From a virus, in the IMG/VR virus record IMGVR_UViG_3300031555_003080, positions 1 to 49,284 of that record: a stretch of DNA of 49,284 nt; one strand, given 5' to 3'. Shown here piece by piece: positions 9,701-25,044 of this stretch. Numbering within the stretch: the stretch's first letter is position 1; each line of letters starts with the position of its first letter. The notes beneath the pieces are model-generated. The model was not told where the DNA came from. It saw only the letters and a list, made by a program, of their open reading frames with translations, and did no database searches. Made by a program: the position numbers and the translations under genes.

Positions 9701-11478
9701 TGAAGAAGTATTATGATTATATTGCTTCTAAACCTGAAGACAGTACTTCTTATAAGTTAACCATGAAAGATGTTAACTGGTCTCCTTATGTTCAGTTAAC
9801 TGAAGGCGCTGTTTATGATGCAGCTGAAACCAATTATTATATTAATGATAGACACTACGGATTTACTGCTTGGACTAAGAATGCTGCAGCATTTGATGAT
9901 CTTGTTCTTAATGGACAGCTTTATTTGTATACTGGTGAACCAAAGGTAAATATTGATGATAGCTTTATTGAAATGCTTCAAAATATTTACAATAATAAAG
10001 TTAACTTCGAAGACGCTTCTGCAAGCAATACTCGTCCAATTATTTCTGGTATTGTTTATGTTAATAATACAAATGCAGTTGAAGAGAGCTGGATTAGAAA
10101 TACTCTACAAGAGTTGTATCCAGATTTAACATTCTTCTTTGCTTCTGTAGAAAAAGCTTACTCTGCTGAATTCTTCTATAAAGATCCAGATACTGGAGTA
10201 GATAAATACGTTAAGTTTGCTAATGGTGATACCGCACCTTCTATTCAGAAAATTGCTAAATCTGCTTATGATGCAAATAATAACGTATGGTTTGAAGATC
10301 CTTTCACTCTTTACGCTCCTACAAGAGCTCACTATGACTTTAAGGGTTGGAGTACAGATCCCGATGCAGATCCAAGCACTGATACAGCTAACATTATCGA
10401 AAATGTTGATGAATGGAATGCATTAAAGATTAACTCTACTACTTACGACTATAAGTATTATGCAATCTTTGCAATTCACTCTTATGATATTATTTTCTAC
10501 GACGGCGATGGCTCTATCCTTGAAGGTTCTATCCTTCCTTATGGAACTGATGGAATTCCTGTTCCTTCTTTAGTTCCTGGATTAGATGATTCTGGTCTTG
10601 ATTTGTATGAAACTAATACCTTTGTGGGTTACACAGATAATACTTTAACTAATAAGATTGTAAATCCTGCTCAGATTACCGTTCGCGGTAAAATGGAATT
10701 CTGGCCTGTTTTTGATCAGGTAGATGTTTATACCAATATTCATCCAGAATATTTCCATGGAGATTTCTATACTGGAGAAACTGGAGTTAGAGGCGTTGAA
10801 CTTTACTTAGATAAGCGTGTTCAAGGCAAACTTACAATTCCAAAAGTATTTAAGATGGAAGATGGAAAAGAATATCCTGTATTGGCATTAAACGCAACCT
10901 TTGCAACAACCTATAATCCTGAATCAGGTAAGGGTTATTCAAATGGTGATAAACTTACTCACGTGTTCTTTGAAAAAGGAACTTCAATTGAGGCTTTCCT
11001 CGATTATGCTTTCTTTGGACACGGCACACAAACAGGTAAGAGCGTATTAACATATGTAGAGTTCCCAGATACTTTACTTACTATTGGATGGCAATGTTTC
11101 ATCCGTTGTAGTCTTTTAGATTATCGTGTAGTAACACAAGATCCGACAAAACTTCCTACCGCTGTTATTAGAGGCGCTAAGGTAAGACAGATTAGTGAGC
11201 AAGCATTCCAGCAAGCATTTAAATCATATTCTGTAACTGATTTCCAAATTGGATCAAGTGTTGAAACTCTTCAAAGTAGAGTATTTAATAATATTGGTAT
11301 TTCAGCTAATACCTTACTTATTGGTACTCCTAATGAAGATTCTAAATTAGTAATTTATACTAATGACAGAATTATGAATACCGCTTCTAATGTATTGTTC
11401 TACACTAGCAACTACACAGAAGATGATATTGGTACATTGCAACCTAACTTCCCAGGAGCTGCAATCCAAATCAAATAA
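3790..11478 (+). CDS. giant (2562 aa) virion protein, putative tail fibre / receptor-binding multidomain protein
   Basis: Uninterrupted 7.7-kb ORF with RBS AAAGGAG. Its N-terminus (IDALPITDGYVYYAVDTGRIYMD) is related to the N-termini of the 1993 and 14797 gene products. No catalytic motif was recognised. Confidence 0.8.
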   Translation: MSNTEFRPVRGTQATIDALPITDGYVYYAVDTGRIYMDKGDARISMGGGGAANGSSIYFGVYGKEIKEDSETKMYYYPIDGLEDKNAEPRVDDMILDDTGALYRIKRIGETSYACTLLPLSGNGSGPTIIRPNLTIASIPNPIIINGQPFEITFTVTSIVEESGSPLAEDMTVYWSLIDKDSGQVYYKGTPVGVKHNVPYNLPVGDYLKESAETVIELYAEALNHDEASAIRQATVTTVEMYLEHTSRYNPANRYSSTNVNLECNAIGNLSKILEWSVDGGVVESKVLTPNSTNPQTFTVPTALATHGYHTIQVDLYQNLGSADSPKKGISANPLIYEIAVTEAGNNTPIIWMGEYQDTYYNYDTIQIPFMVYNPANTSSVEVRLKKNDVEIDGSPRTIEEFSDYSYWQIADADLNKENYYSIECGKTIDTTVVREIKFKVIPDPNRDMTVVKQNSLQLNFDPAGRSNAEPTTKRASWSYTRGGTEYKAEFDNFNWYNNGWYTDSESKSTFLRISNGAKFTIPFEGGLEFGTSDTAKQSNAIELAFKVRNIQNYSNLITNVTRYNIPTAFGDDGKPTSYTSDASLYENEFKNQSLYTNYDAFLQARLEPDVYDNLQFREVQKNVNLSNAVFGFYSGNNNNAVGVCVGSQDTFFSNGYDTVNVSFVEGEMVYLSFVYEHTPAVGSKLYIYINGCITGVIESSITGDTGFKINTNEIVFNSETCDIDLYKMRIYNTALTVNDIVTNHAVDKKNITIYDQNGLAIENQALQEFQLDFKKIENWNKEHPELPLMPYIIYDTSTTTSDDKLPYAKANGATKIRVEFVNTPLDTAYARGELVKKAVEDGLLDELETDQETIDEAVRIYYKHHCPSWTSTMTTGDVVGLEVQGTSSEFYPRRNFKIKTKHGGECCWGDLEDDDGNVIGQGWTEEECLNIFMNKGPFEEIYEADKEKLKADEHYYGYEESRMFDGWYMNNYTNPTDRWTMKVDYMESSGSYNAGFASLVGNAYTKHPLQDYVKAGVLTNTGELENDVFGDMRWKDFRTSLLGFPVMAFHKRKVKGSSTGETECVFIGYYRMLLDKGSDQVLGFKAPKKIKHTLVDNQRLRDVAECWEFSTNARTFCSYKDPWDRVELSFKGPASEGDKVFIKLEGNKIGGPMVLNHFEPRYFAYEDYLKNDEDGFYNFGNLDQDTVDAMCDDIGIDRIDIAAEDAKYKAQDGAVYLMRNWEKVCKWIYSTNLDNVKSQGEYKVAPVGKVVYEPGKFYVMDDTVEGGYRISDDAFDPDETYFEIVDYEVEVEKTDEEGNPILDEDGNPEMETVTRQTYANAYATTSDLIYKPNTFYVDVSGAYSLCSDAEFDTSTTYYIFESLADEKIAEIADLLVEPATAWDENTEYYTYNRDAKVISGGGKTEAVTYVGKVSNERFAANNYYVAAPKKYASTTYKYDTKEYRTAKFMNELKDHFDLEYLATYFIMTEVFECYDSRGKNCMMASWGPLKEGGDYIWYPIFYDIDTQLGINNTGIPSFEFNVDATEAGNYSTSDSILWNNFYKFFKGSQILNKYKNLRNQDSTFDKLDNPPLQSVDYLEKWYTFNEEVTKNIADRGQRPLIATNLDMYYKYITITNPKAESQGVAYIPGSDGVYDYDKDGTYFYALQGDRSQSRRQFLTNRIEYIDSWLNQGNYQRGGNNRIRGRISANSGENGKTSDWWVETDLDPYWTDQEFGTKSHDFDAEYWLTLQPIRSAYVTAGDDSANYPSQKYDGKNPVKFKLGDIEAGVRKSNNYPEQLVYIYGMNQMSDFGEMNKLYWTEFYMEGNADHLTRLQLGYDGFSKTDPTVQWYNQKLNGIKLSDMPLLQEANFSRITLQTQTSLDLSASEKLENFRAVGTSNLTSVNFADGVALNTLYLPKSVTSLKLVQANLLDNLIAEGTAPTPVNNEDGTVTPPTQGLFIDGFFSDTFDSALTSIHFNGGALGFGTYQILKKYYDYIASKPEDSTSYKLTMKDVNWSPYVQLTEGAVYDAAETNYYINDRHYGFTAWTKNAAAFDDLVLNGQLYLYTGEPKVNIDDSFIEMLQNIYNNKVNFEDASASNTRPIISGIVYVNNTNAVEESWIRNTLQELYPDLTFFFASVEKAYSAEFFYKDPDTGVDKYVKFANGDTAPSIQKIAKSAYDANNNVWFEDPFTLYAPTRAHYDFKGWSTDPDADPSTDTANIIENVDEWNALKINSTTYDYKYYAIFAIHSYDIIFYDGDGSILEGSILPYGTDGIPVPSLVPGLDDSGLDLYETNTFVGYTDNTLTNKIVNPAQITVRGKMEFWPVFDQVDVYTNIHPEYFHGDFYTGETGVRGVELYLDKRVQGKLTIPKVFKMEDGKEYPVLALNATFATTYNPESGKGYSNGDKLTHVFFEKGTSIEAFLDYAFFGHGTQTGKSVLTYVEFPDTLLTIGWQCFIRCSLLDYRVVTQDPTKLPTAVIRGAKVRQISEQAFQQAFKSYSVTDFQIGSSVETLQSRVFNNIGISANTLLIGTPNEDSKLVIYTNDRIMNTASNVLFYTSNYTEDDIGTLQPNFPGAAIQIK

Positions 11479-11494
11479 AAAAGGAGATTGAAAT

Positions 11495-11692
11495 ATGACT
11501 AAAGAAGTTTTATACTTGTACACTGGTACAAATGGGAGTATTTTGTCTCCTATTCACTTAGAAGACACTTTTTACTCTCGCAGACTCAGACTGTGGGCTG
11601 ATGAAGGTAAGGCCCTTACCAAAAATGGTAAAGATGTTTACCTTACTGTTGTAATTCCTGAAGAGGAATTAGAACTCTGGTACGAGATTTAA
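11495..11692 (+). CDS. small hypothetical protein (65 aa)
   Basis: ORF with RBS AAAAGGAG 8 nt upstream of the ATG, tightly following the giant gene. Confidence 0.5.
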   Translation: MTKEVLYLYTGTNGSILSPIHLEDTFYSRRLRLWADEGKALTKNGKDVYLTVVIPEEELELWYEI

Positions 11693-11698
11693 GGAATA

Positions 11699-11742
11699 AA
11701 AAAGAGTGAGCCAGAATGTCCTGGCTCACTCTACCTAAATCT
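11699..11742 (+). terminator. probable intrinsic terminator (weak U-tract)
   Basis: Stem AGAGTGAGCCAG / CTGGCTCACTCT with a 6-nt loop, followed by ACCTAAATCTT. Confidence 0.4.
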
Positions 11743-11849
11743 TGCAGGCCAATTATAATTAATAAATTTACCAAAATTTATAATTATTTATGATAAGTTT
11801 GAAATCTTTCAAACGCATATTTGATTATTTTAAGAAAGGATGATATTGA

Positions 11850-13994
11850 GTGATTACTGCTATTAAAGCCGAAAATATTAGTGCTTATAAGGCATTATTT
11901 GAAGAGGCTTCCGACATCCTTAGTGGCTATAAGAGAGTTAGAACTTATGATAGTGAGGTAGACGCTTATTATTATAAAGATGCTGAAGCAGAAACTGCAG
12001 ATGAACTTTTTAAGAAAGATACCACTATCACTGACTTGGTAACCTTTGCACAGTCTTTAGCAAAGTACTCTGTTCTTTATGTTAAAGAAGGAGAGGCCGC
12101 AGAAGGATTTGAGCCAATGCTTGGCATTACCACTTTAGAAGAATATTTCAGCTGGTTAAGAAATCTTGGTAATATTGATAGAAAATATACTGTATTACCT
12201 TTAGATGAAGACCATTTTGAGATTAATGCCGACACTCGCGCAATTAGTATTCCTGCAAGCTTCAAGAAGAATGGCGTTGCTGTTCAAGGTGATGACCTTG
12301 CAGAAGTTTTATACTTCAGAGTAGACCGCTACTTTGACTATATGGACTTAAACAACACTGATATTTATATTCAGTGGGAAACTCCAAAAGATCCAGTAAC
12401 TGGACTTACTACAAAATCTTTATCTCCTGCTTATATTCGTGACATTGATAGTGAACCAGGTAAATTAATTTTCGGCTGGGCATTGTCTGATGCTATTACC
12501 GCAAATTCTGGTACTCTTAAATTCTCTGTTCGTTTCTTCCAGTGGGCAGATGATGAAAAGGCTGCAACAGGCGCAGAAAAGATTATTGCTTACAGCTTTA
12601 GTACTTTAACTGCTTCTGTATCTATTCAGGCAGGTCTTAATTTTAATTTAGAGTCTGATGAACATAAGGTAGACGATGTTGGAAATCGTTTAATCGAGCG
12701 TCTTGAAAATAGTGAAATTGCTGGTGGTTATGCTGCTGCAACTCCTATCTTTGAAAAGAATCTTGATAAACCTAATGCAGATCTTATCTATGATCTCGAT
12801 CCAGCAACTCAGACTTTTGATCTTTTAGTTCAAGCTTATGCTACCGATACTGGAGCAATTACTTACACTTGGAAGAAGCAAGGATTAAATCCTGATAACT
12901 CTGAGCAGGGTCAAGATATTGAGACTTTTACAGGAGTTAATGTATTCGTAAAAGTTGAAGATTTGACTAAATTAAATAAAGCTTATGCTTACTATTGGAC
13001 TAATGGTAACGACAGTAATGGCGATCCTATCTATACCAGATATGATAGATTTACTACTAATGCTGACGGCACCCTTTCTCCTAATACTGAAGATTTAGAT
13101 ATGAAAGACGCAGAAGGCAATAAAACTTTTGCTCTTTATGTAAAACAATCTAAATTTACTGCCGATAGTGCTGGTTTATATTGGTGTGTTGCCGAAAACC
13201 GTATTACAAACAGTTCTTCTTCTGCATTAAGTAAAAAGGCAAAATTCCCTCGTCCAGAAGATGTTAGAATTTCTGAACATCCTGCGGCAAAAGCAATTTT
13301 GACTGAACTTGCAGATGGAACCCTTGAATGTAAATTGGTAGTCGTTGCTGATAATACTGATGGTGTTTTAACTTATCAGTGGCAAAAAGATGATAATTAT
13401 GCTCTTAACTTTGGTTCTGAGACTCCTGCATTTGAAGATGTTCTTGAAGTTGAAGGAAACACTGGTAAAGATGCAGAATATATTGTAACTGCTCCTGGAC
13501 ATTATAGAGTTGTTGTAACTAATACAAGAAATTACTCTGATGCAAAAGAAGAGTACAAAGAATGGGCTAAGAAAACTTTAATTTCTGAAGTAAGCCGTGT
13601 AACTAAGTTCCCATCTATGCCTGTTATCATGGATGCAGATTTGAACAGTAAGTTATTCCAAGTTAGTGCATTAACTGATGAAAATTGTCCTACTGTTGAA
13701 ATGAACCCAGATGTTGAGTCTGATGGATACACTGTATCTTGGTTCTTAAATGAAGACAATATTGATTACCCAATTGCAGAAGATATTAATCTTGGTAAAG
13801 ATGCTGATGGAAATATTATTCTTAAGGCTTCTTTCAACCCAGCTTCTCCTTTGTATGCTGACAAGATTACAAACTTGAGTAGCGATAGAGATATTGACGG
13901 TGCTTATTATGCTATCGTTACTAACTGGGTAAATGGTGAATCTAACTCAACAAAGAAACCAGAATTCGAAGACATGTTCAAGGTCAATAAGTAA
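11850..13994 (+). CDS. virion structural protein (714 aa), unknown function
   Basis: GTG-initiated ORF with an AAGGA RBS. Its N-terminal region shares a domain with the 209-aa protein at 14023 (..VLYFRVDRYFDYMDL...IQWETP vs ..IIWFKTDRFYDNIDL...IQYVNA). Confidence 0.7.
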   Translation: MITAIKAENISAYKALFEEASDILSGYKRVRTYDSEVDAYYYKDAEAETADELFKKDTTITDLVTFAQSLAKYSVLYVKEGEAAEGFEPMLGITTLEEYFSWLRNLGNIDRKYTVLPLDEDHFEINADTRAISIPASFKKNGVAVQGDDLAEVLYFRVDRYFDYMDLNNTDIYIQWETPKDPVTGLTTKSLSPAYIRDIDSEPGKLIFGWALSDAITANSGTLKFSVRFFQWADDEKAATGAEKIIAYSFSTLTASVSIQAGLNFNLESDEHKVDDVGNRLIERLENSEIAGGYAAATPIFEKNLDKPNADLIYDLDPATQTFDLLVQAYATDTGAITYTWKKQGLNPDNSEQGQDIETFTGVNVFVKVEDLTKLNKAYAYYWTNGNDSNGDPIYTRYDRFTTNADGTLSPNTEDLDMKDAEGNKTFALYVKQSKFTADSAGLYWCVAENRITNSSSSALSKKAKFPRPEDVRISEHPAAKAILTELADGTLECKLVVVADNTDGVLTYQWQKDDNYALNFGSETPAFEDVLEVEGNTGKDAEYIVTAPGHYRVVVTNTRNYSDAKEEYKEWAKKTLISEVSRVTKFPSMPVIMDADLNSKLFQVSALTDENCPTVEMNPDVESDGYTVSWFLNEDNIDYPIAEDINLGKDADGNIILKASFNPASPLYADKITNLSSDRDIDGAYYAIVTNWVNGESNSTKKPEFEDMFKVNK

Positions 13995-17603: not shown

Positions 17604-18428
17604 ATGTATATTATTGCTGAAATTGGTATTAATCATAATGGAAATATTGAGACTGCTTTAGAAATGATTAAAGCAGCAAAAGATGCTGGAGCAACTTGTG
17701 TAAAATTTCAAAAAAGAAATCCTGACGTTTGCGTTCCAGAAGATCAAAAAAATAAACCTAAGACATTTCTTGGAGAGGAAATGACTTATTTAGAATATAA
17801 AAAGAAGATTGAATTTGGAAAAGAGGAATACGATCAAATTAATGCTCTTTGCAAAGAACTTCACATTGATTGGACTGCAAGTGTTTGGGACATGGATAGC
17901 GTTAATTTTATGCTTTGGTATAAAAATGATATTCCTTTTATAAAAATTCCAAGTGCATTGATTACAGATATTGAATTATTAAAAGCTGTTGATGCAACTG
18001 GAATCCCAATTCTTATGTCTAATGGAATGAGTTCTCAAGAACAAATTGATAAAGCTATTTCTTCTTTAACTCATTTAAGCGGGCTAATGCATTGTAATAG
18101 CTCTTATCCTTGCAATCCAAAAGAATTGGATTTAAATGTAATTAAAACTTATAAAACCATTTATCCAGGTCTCACAATAGGCTATAGTGGCCATGAGGTT
18201 GGACATTTCCCTACCTGTTTAGCTGTTGCCGCAGGTGCTCAAATTATTGAAAGACATTTTACTTTAGATAATAATATGGAAGGCACCGATCAAAAAGCAA
18301 GCTTAGATAAAAAGCATTTCGAAGCAATGTGCAAAGATATTTAGGGAATAGAAGAAATTATGGGGGGATATTTACCTAAAGTTTATCCCGCTGAACAAGA
18401 AGTTGCTAAAAAATTAAGAAAGGAATGA
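17604..18428 (+). CDS. NeuB-family (sialic / nonulosonic acid synthase-like) protein lacking a SAF domain, interrupted by in-frame TAG at 18342-18344
   Basis: N-terminal IIAEIGINHNG and the ..GYSGHE...IIERHFTLD..MEGTDQKASL.. motifs are typical of NeuB/PseI/SpsE. After the TAG the same frame continues GIEEIMGGYLPKVYPAEQEVAKKLRKE, matching the NeuB region IR.vE..mG.GiK.v.PaEq....rkS, before TGA at 18426-18428. Confidence 0.65.
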
Positions 18429-18434
18429 TTTTAA

Positions 18435-19142
18435 TTGGCTTTTCAAGTTAATAGTGAAAAAAATCTTTATCCTTTTAAATTATATTACTTAACACAATCT
18501 GCTTATGAAGAGTTGTTAAGAGGCGGTACAATTGGTACTCATGTCTTAGATGAAACAGCACTATATCTAACCGAAATTGATGAGAGTTTAGGTGCAGATA
18601 CAAAAGTATCTACTTCTGCCGATGCTACTACTACAACTCTTTATGTAACAGGATGCACTGGTACAACTACCGGTCCATTAAAATATAATTCCAAAGTATA
18701 TATTAACTGTGCTACTGGAGTTCTTTATGGTGCAGCATGGAACGACTATGCAGAATATCGTGTAGCTTCTGAAATTGAGCCTGGCCGAGTAGTATGCGAG
18801 AACGGTGACGATACATTAAGTCGTTCCTATGAACGCCTACAGCCTGGCGCGGCAATTATCTCTGATACTTTTGGATTTGCCATTGGTGAAAGTGGAGAAG
18901 CTAGAACTCCTCTCGCAGTTAGTGGTCGAGTATTAGCATATCCGTATGAAGACAGAGAATCTTACTCTCCTGGCGATGCTGTTTGTGCAGGCCCAGATGG
19001 AACTGTTTCTAAAATGACTCGTGAGGAAATTAGAGAATATCCAGAACGCATTATTGGAACTGTTTCTGCAATTCCAAACTATGAAGTTTGGGGAGAGAAC
19101 CAAATTCATGTTAATGGTCGAATTTGGATTAAAGTTAAATAA
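18435..19142 (+). CDS. tail-fibre-like / unknown virion-associated protein (235 aa, TTG start)
   Basis: Same frame as the NeuB ORF. The only start candidates are TTG codons; TTG at 18435 follows an AAAGGA RBS. The C-terminal region is Gly/Ala-rich and beta-like. The protein family is not recognised. Confidence 0.5.
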   Translation: MAFQVNSEKNLYPFKLYYLTQSAYEELLRGGTIGTHVLDETALYLTEIDESLGADTKVSTSADATTTTLYVTGCTGTTTGPLKYNSKVYINCATGVLYGAAWNDYAEYRVASEIEPGRVVCENGDDTLSRSYERLQPGAAIISDTFGFAIGESGEARTPLAVSGRVLAYPYEDRESYSPGDAVCAGPDGTVSKMTREEIREYPERIIGTVSAIPNYEVWGENQIHVNGRIWIKVK

Positions 19143-19160
19143 TTTAAAAGAAAATAAATT

Positions 19161-19205
19161 AAGGGATACTAATCATATGATTAGTATCCCTTTTTTTGTT
19201 TTTAT
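19161..19205. terminator. bidirectional rho-independent terminator
   Basis: Perfect 15-bp stem AAGGGATACTAATCA / TGATTAGTATCCCTT with a T-run on the + strand and an A/T-rich tract on the other side. It lies between convergent genes. Confidence 0.85.
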
Positions 19206-19912
19206 TCAAGAATTCGATTATAATTAATCCATGCATTCCTTACAGTATCATATTGTTTCATTGGAAAGAAAAGAACGTCATCATTTTCAAAAATAATATT
19301 GTCTTTATTTACAATTTTAATTTCTCCAATATTAATCAATAAACTTGGAGGTAAAAATAAAAAAGTTTTATGTTTTTGAAGAGGATCAATTGCTTTCTCA
19401 AAGGAAGAACGAAGGGTTTGACCATCAAACATATTTCCATCGGTTAAATGATAACATAGACATCTTTTAACGATATTAATATAGTTTAAATGATTAACTC
19501 TAACTCGTCTTTCGCCTCCAGCAATTTTAATGATAATATTATCATCTTGAATATTTTTCTTAATTTCTTTTAATACATCAATGATTTCTTCTCTATCCAA
19601 TGGTTTCATTAGAAAATAATCAACTCTTGCTTTTGCAGCTAAATGAGCTACAGAGGGGTCGCTACTTAAATAAATAAAACGAGCACCAACATCAATCTTT
19701 TTCATTCGACTTCCTAATTCTAAAACGTCCTCTTTAGAGTCCATATCCATAATATAAATATCATAACTCCCTGGCACAGTAATAAAAGTGTCAGGATCAT
19801 TAAAATAAGATACTTTAGCCATCGCTTTAACATCAATTAAAAAATCTTGAGTTATGCTTTTTAAATATTCGGTATCCTCTTTTATATCACTATAAATTGC
19901 AATAGATAACAT
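19202..19912 (-). CDS. response regulator with receiver domain and LytTR DNA-binding domain (AgrA/LytR family)
   Basis: The N-terminus has IAIYSD...DIYIMDMD (phospho-acceptor Asp), ..YLSSDPS.. and ..LMKP.. The C-terminal region (from IKIAGGERRVRVNHLNYIN, running on through LFLPPSLLIN) looks like a LytTR domain. There is no adjacent histidine kinase. Confidence 0.75.
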   Translation of the reverse strand: MLSIAIYSDIKEDTEYLKSITQDFLIDVKAMAKVSYFNDPDTFITVPGSYDIYIMDMDSKEDVLELGSRMKKIDVGARFIYLSSDPSVAHLAAKARVDYFLMKPLDREEIIDVLKEIKKNIQDDNIIIKIAGGERRVRVNHLNYINIVKRCLCYHLTDGNMFDGQTLRSSFEKAIDPLQKHKTFLFLPPSLLINIGEIKIVNKDNIIFENDDVLFFPMKQYDTVRNAWINYNRILE

Positions 19913-19934
19913 ATAGCCACTCCTTTCATAATTT

Positions 19935-19963
19935 TATTATATCACATTTTTGCGACAAAATCA
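19935..19963 (-). promoter_or_regulatory. sigma70-type promoter for the LytTR regulator (TTGATT, 17-nt spacer, TATAAT), bracketed by the inverted repeat TATCACA/TGTGATA
   Basis: The reverse complement reads TTGATTttgtcgcaaaaatgtgaTATAAT, about 22 nt upstream of the RBS AAAGGAG. TATCACA at 19939-19945 and TGTGATA at 19971-19977 form an inverted repeat around it. Confidence 0.55.
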
Positions 19964-20240
19964 AATAATTTTGTGATAAAAACAAATAAAATCCTACTTG
20001 CGTTTTTGAAATGAAAAATTAAAAATGTGAATTTGCAATCAAAAATAAAATTTGTGTAGGCGAAAAATTATCCAAAATTTTTGTGAGTTCTTGAGATTTA
20101 TCGTGCGCCATTAAAACTCATATAATAATGGAAGGGTGAGAGAGAAAAATATTTTAACAAAGGAGGGCGCCTATATGAATTATAATTACCCTTAGTCACA
20201 GTTTCAAACTCAATCTGTTGGATATGGAGGTTACAGGCCA

Positions 20241-20603
20241 GTGCCACAGTATCCGCAATGGGTTCAAACTACAAATACTTCTCAACCAGTGAGACCGGTA
20301 TCCTCGATTGAAGAAGTAAAAGCCTGCCCGATAGATTTCGATGGTTCAGTATTTTATTTCGCTGATGTGGCCAATAAGCGAATTTATACTAAACAAATCA
20401 ATCTTGATGGAACTGTATCAATCAATTTATATGAATTAAAAACTGACCAGCCTGCTGACTCGTTTCAATATGTAACTAAACAAGAATTTGAAAATGTTGT
20501 AGCTCAATTGTATAATACTTTTAATCCGTTACTAAAACCAGTAGAAGATGTACAGCAGCCTGCGGCACAGCCTACACAACAAAAATCAACTTTTGAATTT
20601 TAA
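20241..20603 (+). CDS. hypothetical protein (120 aa)
   Basis: GTG start preceded by GGAGG. No recognisable motif. Confidence 0.5.
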   Translation: MPQYPQWVQTTNTSQPVRPVSSIEEVKACPIDFDGSVFYFADVANKRIYTKQINLDGTVSINLYELKTDQPADSFQYVTKQEFENVVAQLYNTFNPLLKPVEDVQQPAAQPTQQKSTFEF

Positions 20604-20617
20604 GGAGGGAGTTCTAA

Positions 20618-20851
20618 ATGTTTACTATACCTTGGTTCTTAGGAATGATTAAGAAAGGTTATAATCCTCAGCAAGTTATGATGAATGTCCTGGAGTCAAT
20701 GAAAGGGACTCCCATGGGTGATAATTTAATCAATCTCGCTCATTCCGGAAACACTAAAGAAATTGAAAAAATTGCTCGAAACATTGCCGCTCAAAGAGGC
20801 GTTGATTTCGACAAAGAATTCGAAGCTTTTCGTAAGCAATACGGATTCTAA
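20618..20851 (+). CDS. hypothetical protein (77 aa)
   Basis: RBS AAGGAGGG 8 nt upstream. Confidence 0.55.
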   Translation: MFTIPWFLGMIKKGYNPQQVMMNVLESMKGTPMGDNLINLAHSGNTKEIEKIARNIAAQRGVDFDKEFEAFRKQYGF

Positions 20852-20900
20852 TTAAAACAAAACAAATGGAGACAAAATAAAACAAATGGAGGTAAATAAT

Positions 20901-21638
20901 ATGTTTAAAGGAAATGGTGGATATAATTTATCTGATATTGCTGCTGTAACCCGTGGCAGCAATGGAGACGGCCTGTGGGGTGGAGATGGAGCTTGGTGGA
21001 TTATCCTTCTCTTCTTATTTGCTGGATGGGGTAATGGAGGATACGGTGGAGGCCTTGGTGGCGGAAACGCTAGAGATGCGGTATCTTATGGTTTCGACAT
21101 TAATGGTCTTGAGAATGGTATTCGTGGTTTAGAACATGGCATTTGTGATGGTTTCTATGATATGAATACTAGCTTAATGACCGGTTTTGGCAACACCGCA
21201 ATGGGTGCAATGCAAAACACTAATGCTATTATGAGTCGTCTCTGTGACATGAGTGCTGACCAAGCAGCTTGCTGCTGCGAGACTCAGCGTTTAATTGAGC
21301 GTGGTTTATGCGAAGTAAATTATAATATCTTAACTCAATCTAATGCAACCAATACAAATATTTCTAATGCAGCAAGAGATATTATTGAAAACAATAATAA
21401 CGGAGTTCGTTCTATTCTTGACTTCTTAACTCAAGATAAAATTGCTACTCTTCAGGCAGAAAATCAGGCTCTTCGTCTTACTGCTTCTCAACAGGCTCAA
21501 AATAGTTATTTAATTGATCAATTGGGTGCTAAGGCTCCAATTCCTGCTTATGTAGTTGCAAATCCTAATGCAATCTATGGTGGCTATGGTTACTATAACG
21601 GTGGCTGCTATGGTACATTTAATAACTGCTGCAATTGA
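20901..21638 (+). CDS. Gly-rich membrane protein with a Cys-rich C-terminus (about 245 aa)
   Basis: Start ATG at 20901 is preferred over 20886 because of GGAGG spacing. It has one predicted TM helix (WWIILLFLFAGW), GGYGGGLGGG tracts, CCCE and a C-terminal GGCYGTFNNCCN. Confidence 0.55.
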   Translation: MFKGNGGYNLSDIAAVTRGSNGDGLWGGDGAWWIILLFLFAGWGNGGYGGGLGGGNARDAVSYGFDINGLENGIRGLEHGICDGFYDMNTSLMTGFGNTAMGAMQNTNAIMSRLCDMSADQAACCCETQRLIERGLCEVNYNILTQSNATNTNISNAARDIIENNNNGVRSILDFLTQDKIATLQAENQALRLTASQQAQNSYLIDQLGAKAPIPAYVVANPNAIYGGYGYYNGGCYGTFNNCCN

Positions 21639-21653
21639 TAAGGAGGTATGAGT

Positions 21654-22073
21654 ATGGAAATTATTGCTAATGCATTACAAACTGTTGCAGCAAATCAAAA
21701 TGTTTATTTCACTGATACTATCACCGGTGGGAGTATGTCAATCTCCCACCGCTCTAATAGCGGACTTGTGAGTTTGTTTGGCAACACAAATCAATGTCGT
21801 GCAAGATTTAAAATAACTTTTGGCGGAAATATTGCAATTCCAGCAGAAGAGACGGTGGGACCAATTTCGTTGGCAATTGCAATTGATGGAGAGGCAGTTC
21901 AATCTACAACTATGACAGTAACTCCTACCGCAGTAGATACTTTCTTTAATGTATTCTCTGCAATTTTCGTTGATGTTCCAAGAGGAAATGTTGAAACTAT
22001 TAGTGTGAAAAATATTAGTGACATTCCAATAGAATTAGAGAATGCAAATTTAATTATTGAAAGAGTTGCTTGA
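21654..22073 (+). CDS. hypothetical protein (about 139 aa), beta-rich
   Basis: RBS AAGGAGG. The second ATG is preferred on spacing grounds. Confidence 0.5.
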   Translation: MEIIANALQTVAANQNVYFTDTITGGSMSISHRSNSGLVSLFGNTNQCRARFKITFGGNIAIPAEETVGPISLAIAIDGEAVQSTTMTVTPTAVDTFFNVFSAIFVDVPRGNVETISVKNISDIPIELENANLIIERVA

Positions 22074-22087
22074 AAGGAGGAGTGAAG

Positions 22088-22660
22088 ATGTCTATTGAAA
22101 GAATGAAAACAATGAAAGAAGCTTTTATGTGTGCCGTTGAAGGTCAGATGTATAATCTTGCCGAGGTTGATGCAGAAGAGCTTGGTGAAGTTGTAGATAT
22201 GATTAAAGATTTAAGTGAAGCAATTTATTATTGTGAAGTAACAAAAGCAATGGAAGAATCTGAAAAGAATGGTAGTCAAGAGTCAATGTACTACACTCCA
22301 ATGTATTATTCCGATCGCGGAAGCGGAAACGGCAGGTCTTCATCTAATAGTAATTCCACCTCTTCTGGATCGATGAATGGAAATAATGGTACTAGTAGTT
22401 CACAGTATTATGAAAGAGAATATCCTCATGCATTTATGGACGGAAGAGAAGGAAAGAGTTATCGTTCAAGAAGAATGTATATGGAAGCTAAAGAAACTAA
22501 ACAAGATAAAGCATCACAAATGAGAGAGTTAGAAAAGTATATGCAAGAATTAACTCAAGATGTTGTTGAAATGGTTGAAGGTTCTTCTCAAGAAGAAAAG
22601 AGTTATTTAAGTAAAAAGATTTCTGCACTTGCAACAAAACTTTCTCAATTAAGTGATTAA
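22088..22660 (+). CDS. hypothetical low-complexity protein (about 190 aa)
   Basis: RBS AAAGGAGG, then ATG (MSIERM..). Central Ser/Asn/Gly-rich low-complexity segment. Confidence 0.5.
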   Translation: MSIERMKTMKEAFMCAVEGQMYNLAEVDAEELGEVVDMIKDLSEAIYYCEVTKAMEESEKNGSQESMYYTPMYYSDRGSGNGRSSSNSNSTSSGSMNGNNGTSSSQYYEREYPHAFMDGREGKSYRSRRMYMEAKETKQDKASQMRELEKYMQELTQDVVEMVEGSSQEEKSYLSKKISALATKLSQLSD

Positions 22661-22685
22661 AATTAACGGAGAAGATTGGAAGATT

Positions 22686-22916
22686 ATGTTAGCGTCTTCC
22701 AATCACCCTTCTTTGCAACGTCCAAATGGTTCTTTCACTCTTGGATGTTGTGATGATAATTTAAAAACTATTTATATTGCGGATGGGCTTACGGATTTTT
22801 ATTTTAAGAAAGTTTTGTGTCATGAGCTTGTTCATGCGTGTATGTATAGTTATAATGTCGAATTAAATGATTATCAAGAAGAAGTTTTAGCTGATTTAAT
22901 AGCCACTTATGGATAG
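22686..22916 (+). CDS. small HExxH zinc-metallopeptidase-like protein (ImmA/SprT-like?)
   Basis: Contains CHELVHACMY (HExxH). The start is uncertain (GTG at 22653 or ATG at 22686). It ends with TAG. Confidence 0.4.
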   Translation: MLASSNHPSLQRPNGSFTLGCCDDNLKTIYIADGLTDFYFKKVLCHELVHACMYSYNVELNDYQEEVLADLIATYG

Positions 22917-22970
22917 GAAATAATCTCTATAACAAATACAATTTTTTGTAGATTGCATAATTGCAAATAA

Positions 22971-23010
22971 AAAAAGGGAGACTATGTAAAAACATAGTCT
23001 CCCTTTTTTG
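22971..23010. terminator. bidirectional rho-independent terminator
   Basis: AAAAAGGGAGACTATG taaaaa CATAGTCTCCCTTTTTT, sitting between convergent genes. Confidence 0.85.
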
Positions 23011-23012
23011 TT

Positions 23013-23543
23013 TTATTCTTCGTCTGGTTTAATTTCAAGTTTTAAAACTCTTTCATAATATTCTTGAGCTTGACCATTGCCGCCTAAACCATGATATAAT
23101 TTATACATCTCGGTGATTTGTTCAAAGTCAGCTTCTGTAATGTAATTATCTCTTAAATGAGATTTACATAATTGAATGAGTCTAAACTTATAAGAGTTGA
23201 TAATCATATTCAAATTGCGGACATTATCATCCTCAACTTTTCTCAAATCGCTATACATAACAGCATGAGTTGCATCAGCCTCAGATTTAAGCTGATTCAC
23301 CATGGTTTTTGCATTATTATCAACCCCAACAATTTCAGCTTTTAATCTGGTTAATTCATCTACTATAGGCTCAATCTCATCAACAATCATCTGTCTATAT
23401 TGACGATTTTGGTCTGCTTTTTGCATTTCCTCGAGTTTCTTGTTTTTACTCCAAAGATGTTTACAAAAAGCTAGTGCGCCAGCGGAGACCAGACCGAAGA
23501 AAATCTCCAGCGCATACTTAGTAAGAATTTCCATGTGAAACAT
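23013..23543 (-). CDS. membrane-anchored coiled-coil protein (176 aa), function unknown (holin/spanin-like?)
   Basis: N-terminal TM helix (ALEIFFGLVSAGALAF) followed by a charged coiled-coil. RBS GGGAGG. It is the lone minus-strand gene among + strand genes. Confidence 0.55.
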   Translation of the reverse strand: MFHMEILTKYALEIFFGLVSAGALAFCKHLWSKNKKLEEMQKADQNRQYRQMIVDEIEPIVDELTRLKAEIVGVDNNAKTMVNQLKSEADATHAVMYSDLRKVEDDNVRNLNMIINSYKFRLIQLCKSHLRDNYITEADFEQITEMYKLYHGLGGNGQAQEYYERVLKLEIKPDEE

Positions 23544-23583
23544 CCTCCCTTTCTTTCCCTATAGAACATTGAAAATCTTGGTG

Positions 23584-23612
23584 ATTCTATTCTTTGACTT
23601 TGGCCAAATCAA
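23584..23612 (-). promoter_or_regulatory. sigma70-type promoter (TTGATT, 17-nt spacer, TAGAAT) for the 176-aa gene
   Basis: The reverse complement reads TTGATTtggccaaagtcaaagaaTAGAAT, about 35 nt upstream of the RBS. Confidence 0.45.
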
Positions 23613-23667
23613 ATAATATCGTTAAGATAAAAAATTAAAATAATGTAGAAGAAGAATTCGCTAGAAT

Positions 23668-23696
23668 TTGACTTTTATAATTTTTTGTGTTATAAT
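23668..23696 (+). promoter_or_regulatory. sigma70-type promoter (TTGACT, 17-nt spacer, TG-extended TATAAT)
   Basis: TTGACT at 23668-23673, a spacer ending TGTGT, and TATAAT at 23691-23696. It is divergent from the previous promoter. Confidence 0.65.
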
Positions 23697-23722
23697 AATA
23701 TTAGTAAAAGGAGGTAGCTTAT

Positions 23723-24049
23723 ATGCAAAAGATTATTATTTATTACGTTATCCCCGGAACCGAAGACACTCAAAGCATTGAACTTGTTGATTTAACTAGT
23801 TTTAAAGAAACTTTTTTAAATGAAAGACAAGAAATTCAATTTAGCTGTCAGGATACTTTTAAACCTGGTGTTTTAAAAACTCTTATGAATGCTTCTATTC
23901 AAAAGATCACTATGGAAAAGTATGATGCTGAAAATACTCTTCATTTAATTGATTTTGAAGCATATCCTGTGTTTGAAAAAATTTCACAAGATTACAAAGG
24001 AATTAAAATCGTTACAACTTTCCAGAGTATGAGTGTTTATAACTCTTAA
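23723..24049 (+). CDS. hypothetical protein (108 aa)
   Basis: RBS AAAAGGAGG. Confidence 0.55.
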   Translation: MQKIIIYYVIPGTEDTQSIELVDLTSFKETFLNERQEIQFSCQDTFKPGVLKTLMNASIQKITMEKYDAENTLHLIDFEAYPVFEKISQDYKGIKIVTTFQSMSVYNS

Positions 24050-24060
24050 GGAGGGTAATC

Positions 24061-25011
24061 ATGGCTAATCTAGTTAAAGCTGCCGATATTAGCTTAGATT
24101 CATCTTCTTGGTACCAAAGACTAAGGGCAATTCAATCAAGAATTGAAACAGGCGCTTGGACTGGAGTTACTATGACTTTGACCACTGACCCCGGTATTAA
24201 TACCGGGGCAATGGCCTTAGATGATCATTTAAATAATTTAATTTCAGCTATTTCAGCAGCTACTTCAAATGTTTTTTTGGCTTATGCCGACAAATCACAA
24301 TTACCGAGTTCAGTGTCTCCAGGCACACTAATTAAACAAATTACTTATGATGGAATTGATGCCACTTTAGATTCCATGGAATAGATTTGTAGTAATTGTT
24401 CAACATATCAGACATTCGCTAATAACAGTGGCGATTCGACATATACTACTTATAATAATACTTGTGCAACCAACAGCACTTATGAAAATACCTGTGATAC
24501 TAACTCAACATATTCAGATACCTGTGGAACTAACTCAACGTATTCAGATACCTGTGATACTAACTCAACATATTCAGATACCTGTGATACTTATTCTACT
24601 TATTCTGATACTTGTGCAACTTATTCCACTTATTCAGAAATTGCTACAAATGGTACTGAGATTACAGGTACAGCATATTCAACTGAAAATGCAAATTTAA
24701 GTGTTGCTTCTGGAGCCTATAGTTATAATTGTACTAATTATTGTGCTACTTATAATACAAATGACACATATCTAGAAAGTCAAACTTATGACACTTATTT
24801 AGAGAGTTTGACATATGAAACATATTTAGAAAGCTTAACCTATGAGACTTATTTAGAGAGTTTAATTTGTGAAACTTATGCTGAATCTTTAACTTATTCA
24901 ACATATCTTGAATCTCAAGTTTGCGCGACATATGCAGAGTCTCAAGTATATTCAACTTTTACTCAAAGCGCAGGAAATTCTACAGATGCTACATTTGCAG
25001 TTGTGACTTAA
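24061..25011 (+). CDS. candidate RiPP precursor-like gene: 107-aa N-terminal part, in-frame TAG (24382-24384), then a 209-codon Cys/Tyr/Ser/Thr/Asp-rich tandem-repeat region
   Basis: RBS AAGGAGGG before the ATG at 24061. Past the TAG the same frame stays open to TAA at 25009-25011 and contains no ATG or GTG. It encodes six TC(D/A/G)T(N/Y)STY(S/E)(D/N/E) decapeptide repeats followed by TY(E/D/S)TY(L/A)ES(L/Q) nonapeptide repeats. The repeats differ by synonymous codons (Ser as agt/agc/tct/tca, Leu as tta/ttg/cta/ctt, Glu as gag/gaa), indicating selection at the peptide level. Confidence 0.55.
24385..25011 (+). repeat. tandem 30-nt and 27-nt coding repeats (decapeptide and nonapeptide units)
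   Basis: Direct repeats such as cagatacctgtgatactaactcaacatatt (three near-identical copies) and acttatttagagagtttgacatatgaaacatat-type units. Confidence 0.8.
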
Positions 25012-25044
25012 GCTTTCAATTAAGAGAAAAAGGAGTTTAATAAA

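What the first reader, a model, noticed from the sequence alone, without database searches (positions are those of the whole stretch)
18342..24384. Two in-frame amber codons with downstream sense continuation suggest programmed TAG readthrough or recoding
TAG is the rarest stop in this window: 3 of about 50 gene ends, with none among the 23 minus-strand genes; TAA and TGA dominate. In two of the three cases the reading frame demonstrably continues with meaningful protein after the TAG. In the NeuB-like gene, the NeuB-alignable sequence runs across the TAG, which sits where an Arg is expected. In the repeat-peptide gene, the start-less downstream peptide is under selection. This points to amber suppression (a phage or host suppressor tRNA) or conditional TAG reassignment, as reported for late genes of some gut phages. 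No suppressor tRNA is visible in this window.
Basis: partly seen in the sequence, partly recalled or inferred. Interest (0 to 1): 0.8.

Follow-up and report, generated by a model that had tools for sequence, protein, structure and literature searches.

The report
Phage reads TAG as glutamine
This gut-type phage fragment has four genes interrupted by an in-frame TAG codon that is almost certainly read as glutamine rather than as a stop, which is a real but already described kind of genetic-code change in phages.

Summary
All three ORFs that appear to end in TAG continue in frame as conserved protein: the NeuB-like gene (TAG 18342), an HExxH peptidase-like gene (22914) and the repeat protein (24382). 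A fourth in-frame TAG sits at codon 7 of gene 20175..20603 (TAG 20193). No credible gene in the window terminates with TAG.

Relatives decide the meaning:
- In loci homologous to window proteins I counted 433 in-frame TAGs against 8 TAA/TGA. Of the TAGs aligned to a residue, 42% fall on a window Gln (background 3.7%).
- The closest relatives swap TAG with CAA/CAG in both directions.
- The TAG in the repeat gene is kept in two diverged assemblies, and the one in the peptidase gene is kept in a 60%-identical relative.
- Sequence downstream of each TAG is under purifying selection (dN/dS 0–0.43).
- The NeuB TAG allele is identical in four other assemblies.

The phage is a large SPbeta/phAss-like siphovirus, from a clade that mixes heavily TAG-recoded members with apparently standard-code ones. 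I conclude TAG means Gln (code 15), used sparingly here, which makes this a new member of a known kind.

No CUA tRNA was found in the window or in about 2 Mb of related loci, so the decoding agent is inferred, not shown.

The parts
17604..18428 (+). NeuB-like (N-acetylneuraminate/sialic-acid-synthase family) gene, 274 codons once TAG is read as sense; ends at TGA
   Evidence: Pfam NeuB match, E 1e-64, residues 21-255. More than 100 homologues are 272-287 aa long, and the invariant G254, E264 and R272 lie after the TAG.
18342..18344 (+). In-frame TAG, codon 247 of the NeuB-like gene
   Evidence: CAA (Gln) in L027, L028 and L029. The TAG is identical in four other JGI assemblies. Codons 248-274 against L027 show 7 synonymous and 0 non-synonymous differences.
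20175..20603 (+). Conserved 142-codon gene of unknown function (phrog_21718); the standard-code ORF from GTG 20241 is a truncated artefact
   Evidence: The N-terminus MNYNYP*SQFQ aligns with MNYNYPQTQFQ in L030 and MNYNYPQPQFQ in L023, and a GGAG lies upstream of ATG 20175.
20193..20195 (+). In-frame TAG, codon 7 of gene 20175..20603
   Evidence: Aligns with Gln in L030 and L023. Codons 1-22 are under purifying selection, pN 0.08-0.10 against pS 0.76-0.96.
22653..22970 (+). HExxH metallopeptidase-like gene, 105 codons with TAG read as sense; ends at TAA
   Evidence: phrog_1233 match over residues 2-104. Weak Pfam peptidase hits. Homology to L001 and L053 extends past the TAG.
22914..22916 (+). 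In-frame TAG, codon 88 of the peptidase-like gene
   Evidence: TAG at the same codon in L001, which is 60% identical; Glu in MT838220/L053.
24061..25011 (+). Single 316-codon gene: a 107-aa N-terminal domain joined to a Cys/Ser/Thr/Tyr-rich tail with 30-nt and 27-nt tandem repeats
   Evidence: Full-length homologues of 278-317 aa. One continuous frame in L001, L023, L024, L025 and L026. Tandem repeats.
24382..24384 (+). In-frame TAG, codon 108 of the repeat-protein gene
   Evidence: TAG is kept at codon 108 in L025 and L026, which are about 83% identical and differ by frame-preserving indels. It is GGG in L023 and L024, which instead carry TAG at codon 19 where the window has CAA. dN/dS of the tail is 0.21-0.35.

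Best explanation
The window comes from a large (probably about 150 kb) SPbeta/phAss-like tailed phage that translates TAG as glutamine (NCBI genetic code 15).

In this 49-kb stretch TAG is never a terminator. It occurs four times as a sense codon, all in the + strand block between 17.6 and 24.4 kb that also carries tail-fibre-like genes. It does not occur in frame in the - strand replication genes.

Shown:
- The four TAGs lie inside genes whose downstream parts are conserved and under selection.
- In this lineage TAG behaves as a synonym of CAA/CAG.

Inferred from other recoded phages:
- A suppressor tRNA with anticodon CUA, charged with Gln and probably phage-encoded outside this window, outcompetes release factor 1 during infection.
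- TAG-containing genes therefore give full-length protein only once the suppressor is present.
For: 1. All interruptions of homologous genes in relatives are TAG. I counted 433 TAG against 8 TAA/TGA, the latter mostly at alignment gaps. Of 415 TAGs aligned to a residue, 176 (42%) align with Gln in window proteins, against a background Gln frequency of 3.7%. The next most common partners are K, E and D.
2. Exchange runs both ways among close relatives. NeuB codon 247 is TAG in the window and CAA in L027, L028 and L029. In the adjacent gene 18435..19142, codon 4 is CAA in the window and TAG in L027 and L028. Repeat-gene codon 19 is CAA in the window and TAG in L023 and L024.
3. The TAG itself is conserved: codon 108 of the repeat gene in L025 and L026, and codon 88 of the peptidase gene in L001.
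4. dN/dS downstream of the TAGs is 0-0.43, similar to the upstream parts.
5. Reading TAG as sense restores family-typical lengths. NeuB becomes 274 aa against 272-287 aa in homologues, with invariant residues after the TAG. The repeat protein becomes 316 aa against 278-317 aa.
6. No credible gene ends in TAG. In standard-looking relatives TAG ends 12.5% of ORFs, so the probability of none among about 50 genes is about 0.001.
7. The clade contains heavily recoded members. Coding density under code 11 is 0.52-0.68 and rises to 0.90-0.93 under code 15, with 7-13 TAG per 1000 codons. By a density-gain threshold, 31 of 71 loci sharing a topoisomerase show the TAG signature.
8. The source pipelines had already translated several relatives with TAG as Q. 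The look-up of encoding contigs flag 'translates_to_query' was 'no', and the stored proteins carry Q at the TAG.
9. The nearest GenBank phage by polymerase is phAss-1, a described TAG-to-Gln phage with three tRNA-Sup-CTA genes (PMC10607447).
Against: - No tRNA(CUA), and no tRNA at all, is present in the window.
- None was found in 115 related loci totalling 1.96 Mb. These loci overlap heavily and cover mainly the replication and tail regions.
- No release-factor or Gln-tRNA-synthetase gene was seen among the window proteins I scanned.
- Within the window the gain in coding density from code 11 to code 15 is small (0.931 to 0.945). The window alone would not pass a density-based recoding screen.
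- There is no protein-level evidence.
- In one relative each, the residue opposite a window TAG is Glu, His or Gly rather than Gln.
Confidence: 0.88

Rival explanations
1. The TAGs are ordinary nonsense mutations in a standard-code phage, so these are decaying or truncated genes.
For: At NeuB codon 247 the closest relatives carry a sense codon, CAA. Only four such codons occur in 49 kb.
Against: - The downstream segments are under purifying selection. NeuB codons 248-274 show 7 synonymous and 0 non-synonymous changes against L027.
- The TAG is conserved at the same codon across diverged relatives.
- Only TAG, never TAA or TGA, interrupts genes across the clade, even though A+T richness favours TAA.
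- The NeuB TAG allele is identical in four other assemblies from different samples.
- A stop at codon 7 would abolish a gene that is conserved in every relative examined.
Confidence: 0.03
2. Standard code with programmed, partial read-through of leaky TAG terminators, so that each gene yields a short and a long isoform (as with the Q-beta A1 protein or retroviral gag-pol).
For: In the repeat gene the TAG sits exactly at the junction between the N-terminal domain and the repeat tail, and it is kept there in three sequences.
Against: - TAG positions are not conserved over longer distances. The repeat gene has TAG at codon 19 in L023 and L024, and at eight positions in L001.
- The short products would be non-functional: a 6-aa peptide, or a NeuB lacking the invariant G254, E264 and R272.
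- TAG is never used as a true terminator in the window.
- Relatives carry up to 13 TAG per 1000 codons, which leaky termination cannot sustain.
Confidence: 0.06
3. Sequencing or assembly error, or a chimeric contig.
For: The window is a metagenomic assembly. I could not retrieve its own contig.
Against: - NeuB sequences carrying the TAG are identical over 825 nt in four other assemblies.
- The TAG is reproduced in ENA and Logan assemblies of relatives.
- Four independent sites all carry the same codon.
Confidence: 0.01
4. TAG encodes pyrrolysine or some residue other than Gln, or the host itself reads TAG as sense.
For: ARAGORN labels any CUA tRNA as tRNA-Pyl. The host is unknown. Polymerase relatives sit in MAGs labelled Mollicutes and Anaeroplasmatales.
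Against: - TAG aligns with Gln about 11-fold more often than the background frequency, and the next partners (K, E, D, R) are typical Gln substitutes.
- No pyl genes were found among the window proteins I scanned.
- TAG density ranges from 0 to 13 per 1000 codons among relatives. That fits a phage-borne trait better than a host-wide code.
Confidence: 0.02

Closest known systems
Genetic code 15 (TAG to Gln) phages of animal and human guts: crAss-like, Lak and the 'gemstone' clades (Borges et al., bioRxiv 10.1101/2021.08.26.457843; proteomic validation in PMC9523058)
   Same: - In-frame TAG in conserved genes, aligning with Gln.
- TAG lost as a terminator.
- A low-GC genome (35%).
- In this window, recoding in the block that carries structural genes and not in the replication genes.
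- Close relatives with different codes.
   Different: - Recoding here is very sparse: 4 TAG in about 15,200 codons. The window would be missed by coding-density screens.
- No suppressor tRNA was seen. Borges et al. report that they detected one in only 40% of TAG-recoded genomes.
phAss-1 / proposed Phassvirus group (OQ749652; PMC10607447)
   Same: - The best GenBank match of the PolIII-alpha-type polymerase (39%).
- A large siphovirus-type genome from gut samples.
- TAG to Gln recoding.
- An NrdD/NrdG module.
   Different: - Only about 39% polymerase identity, so this is not the same genus.
- phAss-1 has 41 recoded ORFs, 36 tRNAs and two tRNA-Sup-CTA genes directly upstream of nrdD. The window has no tRNA next to its nrdD.
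Agate clade of Borges et al. (Firmicutes-infecting, about 154 kb, with standard, TAG- and TGA-recoded members mixed)
   Same: - Relatives have contigs of 100-194 kb.
- TAG-recoded and standard-looking members are mixed.
- One relative looks TGA-recoded and one carries a tRNA(UCA).
   Different: Membership is defined by the large-terminase phylogeny, and the terminase is not in the window. This is a lead only.
SPbeta-like phages (Bacillus SPbeta, Enterococcus EF1)
   Same: A YorL-type PolIII-alpha polymerase (about 38% identity) and a YorH-family protein.
   Different: According to PMC10607447 these phages use the standard code.

Membership tests
TAG-to-Gln recoded (code 15) phage | In-frame TAG codons inside conserved protein-coding genes, with homology continuing past them | tested here: met
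   Four genes: NeuB-like, gene 20175, the peptidase-like gene and the repeat protein.
TAG-to-Gln recoded (code 15) phage | TAG aligns preferentially with Gln in homologues | tested here: met
   176 of 415 clade TAGs fall on a window Gln, against 3.7% background. Two of the four window TAGs (NeuB codon 247, gene 20175 codon 7) align with Gln in close relatives; the other two align with a conserved TAG in the closest relatives and with Gly or Glu in more distant ones.
TAG-to-Gln recoded (code 15) phage | TAG not used as a terminator | tested here: met
   0 of about 50 genes in the window once the three false ends are resolved. P is about 0.001 against the 12.5% seen in standard-looking relatives. 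This covers the 49-kb window only.
TAG-to-Gln recoded (code 15) phage | Clear gain in coding density or gene length when TAG is treated as sense | tested here: inconclusive
   The window goes from 0.931 to 0.945, a small gain. Relatives go from 0.52-0.68 to 0.90-0.93.
TAG-to-Gln recoded (code 15) phage | Suppressor tRNA with anticodon CUA in the phage genome | tested here: not met
   None in the window and none in 1.96 Mb of related loci. The rest of this genome could not be retrieved. This feature is common but not universal: Borges et al. detected it in 40% of TAG-recoded genomes.
TAG-to-Gln recoded (code 15) phage | Peptides with Gln at TAG positions | not testable with these tools
   Needs metaproteomics, as in PMC9523058.
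Phassvirus (phAss-1 group) | High nucleotide identity and synteny with phAss-1 (the three species share 80-86% nucleotide identity) | tested here: not met
   No megablast match to any GenBank phage. Polymerase identity is only 39%. The order of nrdD and the polymerase differs.
Agate clade (Borges et al.) | Placement in the large-terminase tree with at least 95% bootstrap support | not testable with these tools
   The terminase is not in the window, and the reference sequences are not held.
Programmed stop-codon read-through (two isoforms from one leaky stop) | A genuine terminator at a fixed position, giving a functional short product and a minor extended one | tested here: not met
   TAG positions shift between relatives. 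The short products would lack invariant residues or be only 6 aa long.

The most novel reading that the evidence does not exclude
This lineage may decode TAG without a canonical phage-encoded tRNA(CUA), for example through a non-canonical or split suppressor RNA, a modified host tRNA-Gln, or inhibition of release factor 1. No CUA tRNA appeared in the window or in about 2 Mb of loci from relatives, including heavily recoded ones. A milder version of this reading is that the phage is a near-minimal intermediate in a code change: TAG has already been purged as a terminator, only a handful of TAG(Gln) codons exist, and these flip to and from CAA/CAG among relatives that are about 91% identical.
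Probability: 0.12. Interest if true: 0.8.

Novelty: new member of a known kind. Interest (0 to 1): 0.4.

Why it matters
Practical consequence: standard-code gene calling mis-annotates at least four genes here. It truncates NeuB, cuts the N-terminus off gene 20175, shortens the peptidase-like gene, and splits the repeat protein into a 107-aa ORF and an orphan 'start-less' peptide. Annotation should use translation table 15.

Biological interest: the window adds a sparsely recoded member to a clade that mixes heavily TAG-recoded genomes with apparently standard-code ones. Borges et al. proposed an order of events for a code change: loss of the stop codon as a terminator, then a suppressor, then spread of sense TAGs. 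A contrast of this kind, with TAG and CAA/CAG flipping between relatives about 91% identical at the nucleotide level, is what is needed to test that order.

The phenomenon itself (TAG to Gln in gut phages) is already established bioinformatically and by metaproteomics, so the finding confirms known biology rather than opening something new.

Tried and rejected
- **Retrieving the rest of the genome.** Look-ups of the terminal proteins returned only 1-4 kb contigs from other samples. Exact-match scans with the window ends found nothing in IMG/VR or in the JGI metagenome collection.
- **Hunting for a suppressor tRNA in relatives.** ARAGORN was run on every related locus, and Rfam on seven of them, with no CUA tRNA found.
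- **A generic tRNA-Sup pattern scan of IMG/VR**. Two leads from it, L106 and L129, turned out to be unrelated phages with no CUA tRNA.
- **GenBank phage collection.** No nucleotide-level relative and no hit for the radical-SAM protein. Distant blastn gave only short 68-71% matches.
- **A global test of TAG as sense on the window alone** was uninformative, because recoding here is too sparse.
- **Other upstream in-frame TAGs.** The ones at 23561, 29761 and upstream of nrdD lie in non-coding or overlapping sequence and are not recoded codons.
- **'Arg expected at the NeuB TAG'** was rejected.
- **The second metagenome scan** found only distant homologues.


Full report
**1. The observation**

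A mechanical ORF map of the window gives 47 non-overlapping ORFs of at least 70 aa, covering 93% of the sequence. Their stops are TAA 32, TGA 12 and TAG 3, and all three TAG ends are on the + strand.

The NeuB-like ORF 17604..18344 ends at TAG 18342-18344. The same frame continues for 27 codons (GIEEIMGGYLPKVYPAEQEVAKKLRKE) to a TGA. With an X at the TAG, the Pfam NeuB domain matches residues 21-255 (E 1e-64), which is across codon 247.

ORF 24061..24384 ends at TAG 24382-24384. Its frame stays open for a further 208 codons to TAA at 25009-25011, with no possible start codon before 24808.

ARAGORN and Rfam find no tRNA or other known RNA in the window.

**2. More TAGs than reported**

The third TAG-ended ORF (22653..22916, an HExxH peptidase-like protein) also continues in frame, as ...LIATYG*EIISITNTIFCRLHNCK. 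The homologue in L001, 60% identical, has TAG at the same codon and aligns through residue 103. GenBank MT838220 has Glu there and aligns through residue 101. PHROG 1233 matches residues 2-104.

I then checked which genes are bounded upstream by an in-frame TAG. That exposed a fourth case. The gene annotated from GTG 20241 really starts at ATG 20175 and reads MNYNYP*SQFQTQSVGYGGY... Relatives L030 and L023 read MNYNYPQTQFQ... and MNYNYPQPQFQ....

No plausible small gene in the intergenic gaps ends in TAG. The window therefore holds four in-frame TAGs (18342, 20193, 22914, 24382) and no TAG terminator. In the coding frames there are 318 CAA, 189 CAG and these TAG codons among about 15,200 codons (its gene list started this gene at 20241, so it counted three).

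**3. What the window is**

The - strand half encodes NrdD/NrdG, a Dda-like helicase, RecJ, DnaB, a primase, dUTPase, guanylate kinase and a 1330-aa PolIII-alpha-type polymerase. The + strand half encodes very large tail-fibre-like proteins with LRR, YadA-head and Ig signatures.

The polymerase is 38-39% identical to those of phAss-1, Enterococcus EF1-like phages and Bacillus SPbeta. One protein carries the SPbeta YorH Pfam family. Nothing in GenBank phages is close at the DNA level.

IMG/VR holds relatives with 56-70% polymerase identity on contigs of 145-194 kb. MAGs labelled Mollicutes and Anaeroplasmatales hold similar contigs.

**4. Evidence from relatives**

*The repeat gene.* A protein search with the two halves joined found full-length homologues of 278-317 aa, which align end to end. 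The stored proteins of the closest ones show Q at the window's TAG. Their DNA (L025 from ENA, L026 from Logan) has TAG at exactly codon 108, so the source pipelines had translated with an alternative code. These sequences differ from the window by many substitutions and by in-frame indels of 20-21 codons in the tail, so the TAG is conserved and is not a recent accident. More distant homologues (L023, L024) have GGG at codon 108, but TAG at codon 19, where the window has CAA. L001 has eight TAGs in this gene.

*NeuB.* More than 100 homologues are 272-287 aa long, and the window's gene is 274 codons when read through. The invariant G254, E264 and R272 lie after the TAG. The closest relatives (L027 and L028, 96% amino-acid and 91% nucleotide identity) and L029 carry CAA at codon 247. 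L027 and L028 in turn have TAG at codon 4 of the adjacent gene, where the window has CAA. L030 has TAG at NeuB codon 266. The NeuB allele with TAG is identical over 825 nt in four other JGI assemblies.

*Clade-wide.* I ran tblastn with all window proteins against the related loci. Inside homologous regions there were 433 in-frame TAGs and only 8 TAA/TGA, the latter mostly at gaps. Of 415 TAGs aligned to a residue, 176 (42%) fall on a window Gln, against a background of 3.7%. K, E and D come next (earlier subsets).

*Selection.* Nei-Gojobori estimates for the segments downstream of the TAGs give dN/dS of 0 to 0.43, similar to the upstream parts. For NeuB codons 248-274 against L027 there are 7 synonymous and 0 non-synonymous differences. 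The repeat tail gives 0.21-0.35.

**5. A mixed clade**

Several relatives (L001, L030, L031, L032, L039, L054) are heavily recoded. Their coding density is 0.52-0.69 under code 11 and 0.90-0.93 when TAG is sense, with 6.6-13 TAG per 1000 codons. That includes replication genes such as recJ. L034 and several others look standard and use TAG as a terminator. L035 is intermediate.

Seventy-one loci of at least 8 kb share a topoisomerase with the clade. By a simple density-gain threshold, 31 of them show a clear TAG-recoding signature, 39 do not and 1 looks TGA-recoded. One locus carries a tRNA(UCA).

In twelve standard-looking loci TAG ends 36 of 288 ORFs (12.5%). At that rate, zero TAG terminators in 47-53 genes has a probability of about 0.001-0.002.

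**6. Interpretation**

In this lineage TAG behaves as a synonymous Gln codon. The window's phage uses it sparingly, and within the visible 49 kb only in the + strand block that also holds the structural genes.

This matches the published picture. TAG-to-Gln recoding is widespread in gut phages. It is preferentially found in late genes, varies between close relatives, and is preceded by loss of the codon as a terminator (bioRxiv 10.1101/2021.08.26.457843). It has been confirmed by metaproteomics for crAss-like phages (PMC9523058) and was described for the phAss-1 group, which is distantly related to this phage (PMC10607447).

The decoding agent is inferred, not shown. phAss-1 carries two tRNA-Sup-CTA genes next to nrdD and a third in a tRNA array. 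I found no CUA tRNA in the window or in 115 related loci totalling 1.96 Mb, which largely cover overlapping regions. The remainder of this genome could not be fetched. Borges et al. report that they detected suppressor tRNAs in only 40% of TAG-recoded genomes, so a negative result here is weak evidence.

**7. Rivals**

- Nonsense mutations and sequencing errors are excluded by four things: conservation of the TAG, the exclusivity of TAG among interrupting stops, purifying selection downstream, and independent assemblies.
- Isoform-producing leaky termination does not fit. TAG positions move between relatives, and the short products would be non-functional.
- Pyrrolysine or another residue is disfavoured by the Gln-centred alignment spectrum.

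**8. Verdict**

It is a new, lightly recoded member of a known kind (code-15 phages). That matters for annotation and gives a modest data point on how such codes spread. It is not a new mechanism unless the missing suppressor proves to be truly absent.

Noticed in passing
window 24061-27824 (also L001 9968-13912, L023 4235-7996, L024 530-4290): The repeat protein has about five 30-nt repeats encoding TC[DGA]TNSTYSD and about five 27-nt repeats encoding TY[LA]ES[LQ]TYE, which form aromatic-x-Asp/Glu/Asn motifs; in L023 and L024 Trp replaces Tyr in these motifs. It is always followed by two radical-SAM/SPASM-like proteins, 25045..26412 (with a CNLNCRYC motif) and 26409..27824. Both have weak, sub-threshold similarity to sactipeptide, ranthipeptide and cyclophane peptide maturases. 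This looks like a phage-borne cassette for cross-linking a large repeat protein (RiPP-like).
   Followed up: partly
L031, L032, L039 positions 10001-13987: In the heavily recoded relatives the 1330-aa PolIII-alpha gene has no in-frame TAG, while its neighbours do: recJ carries 12-14, and the Dda helicase, dnaB and nrdD carry several each. This suggests a very early, suppressor-independent expression class.
   Followed up: no
L031 14884-18004: The nrdD homologue is split into two aligned pieces separated by about 840 nt. This could be an intron, an intein or a homing-endonuclease insertion.
   Followed up: no
L054 (CAMELE010000010.1), L056 (CAZWLD010000037.1): Contigs with polymerases 69% and 58% identical to the window's are binned in MAGs labelled uncultured Mollicutes and Anaeroplasmatales. 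Both are TAG-recoded. This is a host lead only, and the binning may be compositional.
   Followed up: partly
L261 531-627: A distant clade member carries a 97-nt tRNA with anticodon UCA (ARAGORN labels it SeC) inside a small tRNA array. It may be an opal suppressor, which would fit TGA-recoded members of the clade.
   Followed up: no
window 19202-19912 (- strand): A response-regulator-receiver-like gene sits alone on the - strand inside the + strand late block. It is conserved in L001, L023 and L030 (53-82% identity), and carries a TAG in L030 and in L001.
   Followed up: no
window 18435-19142: This gene appears to start at TTG. In L027 and L028 its codon 4 is TAG, which led the source gene callers to truncate it to 209 aa. 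This is another annotation casualty of the code change.
   Followed up: partly
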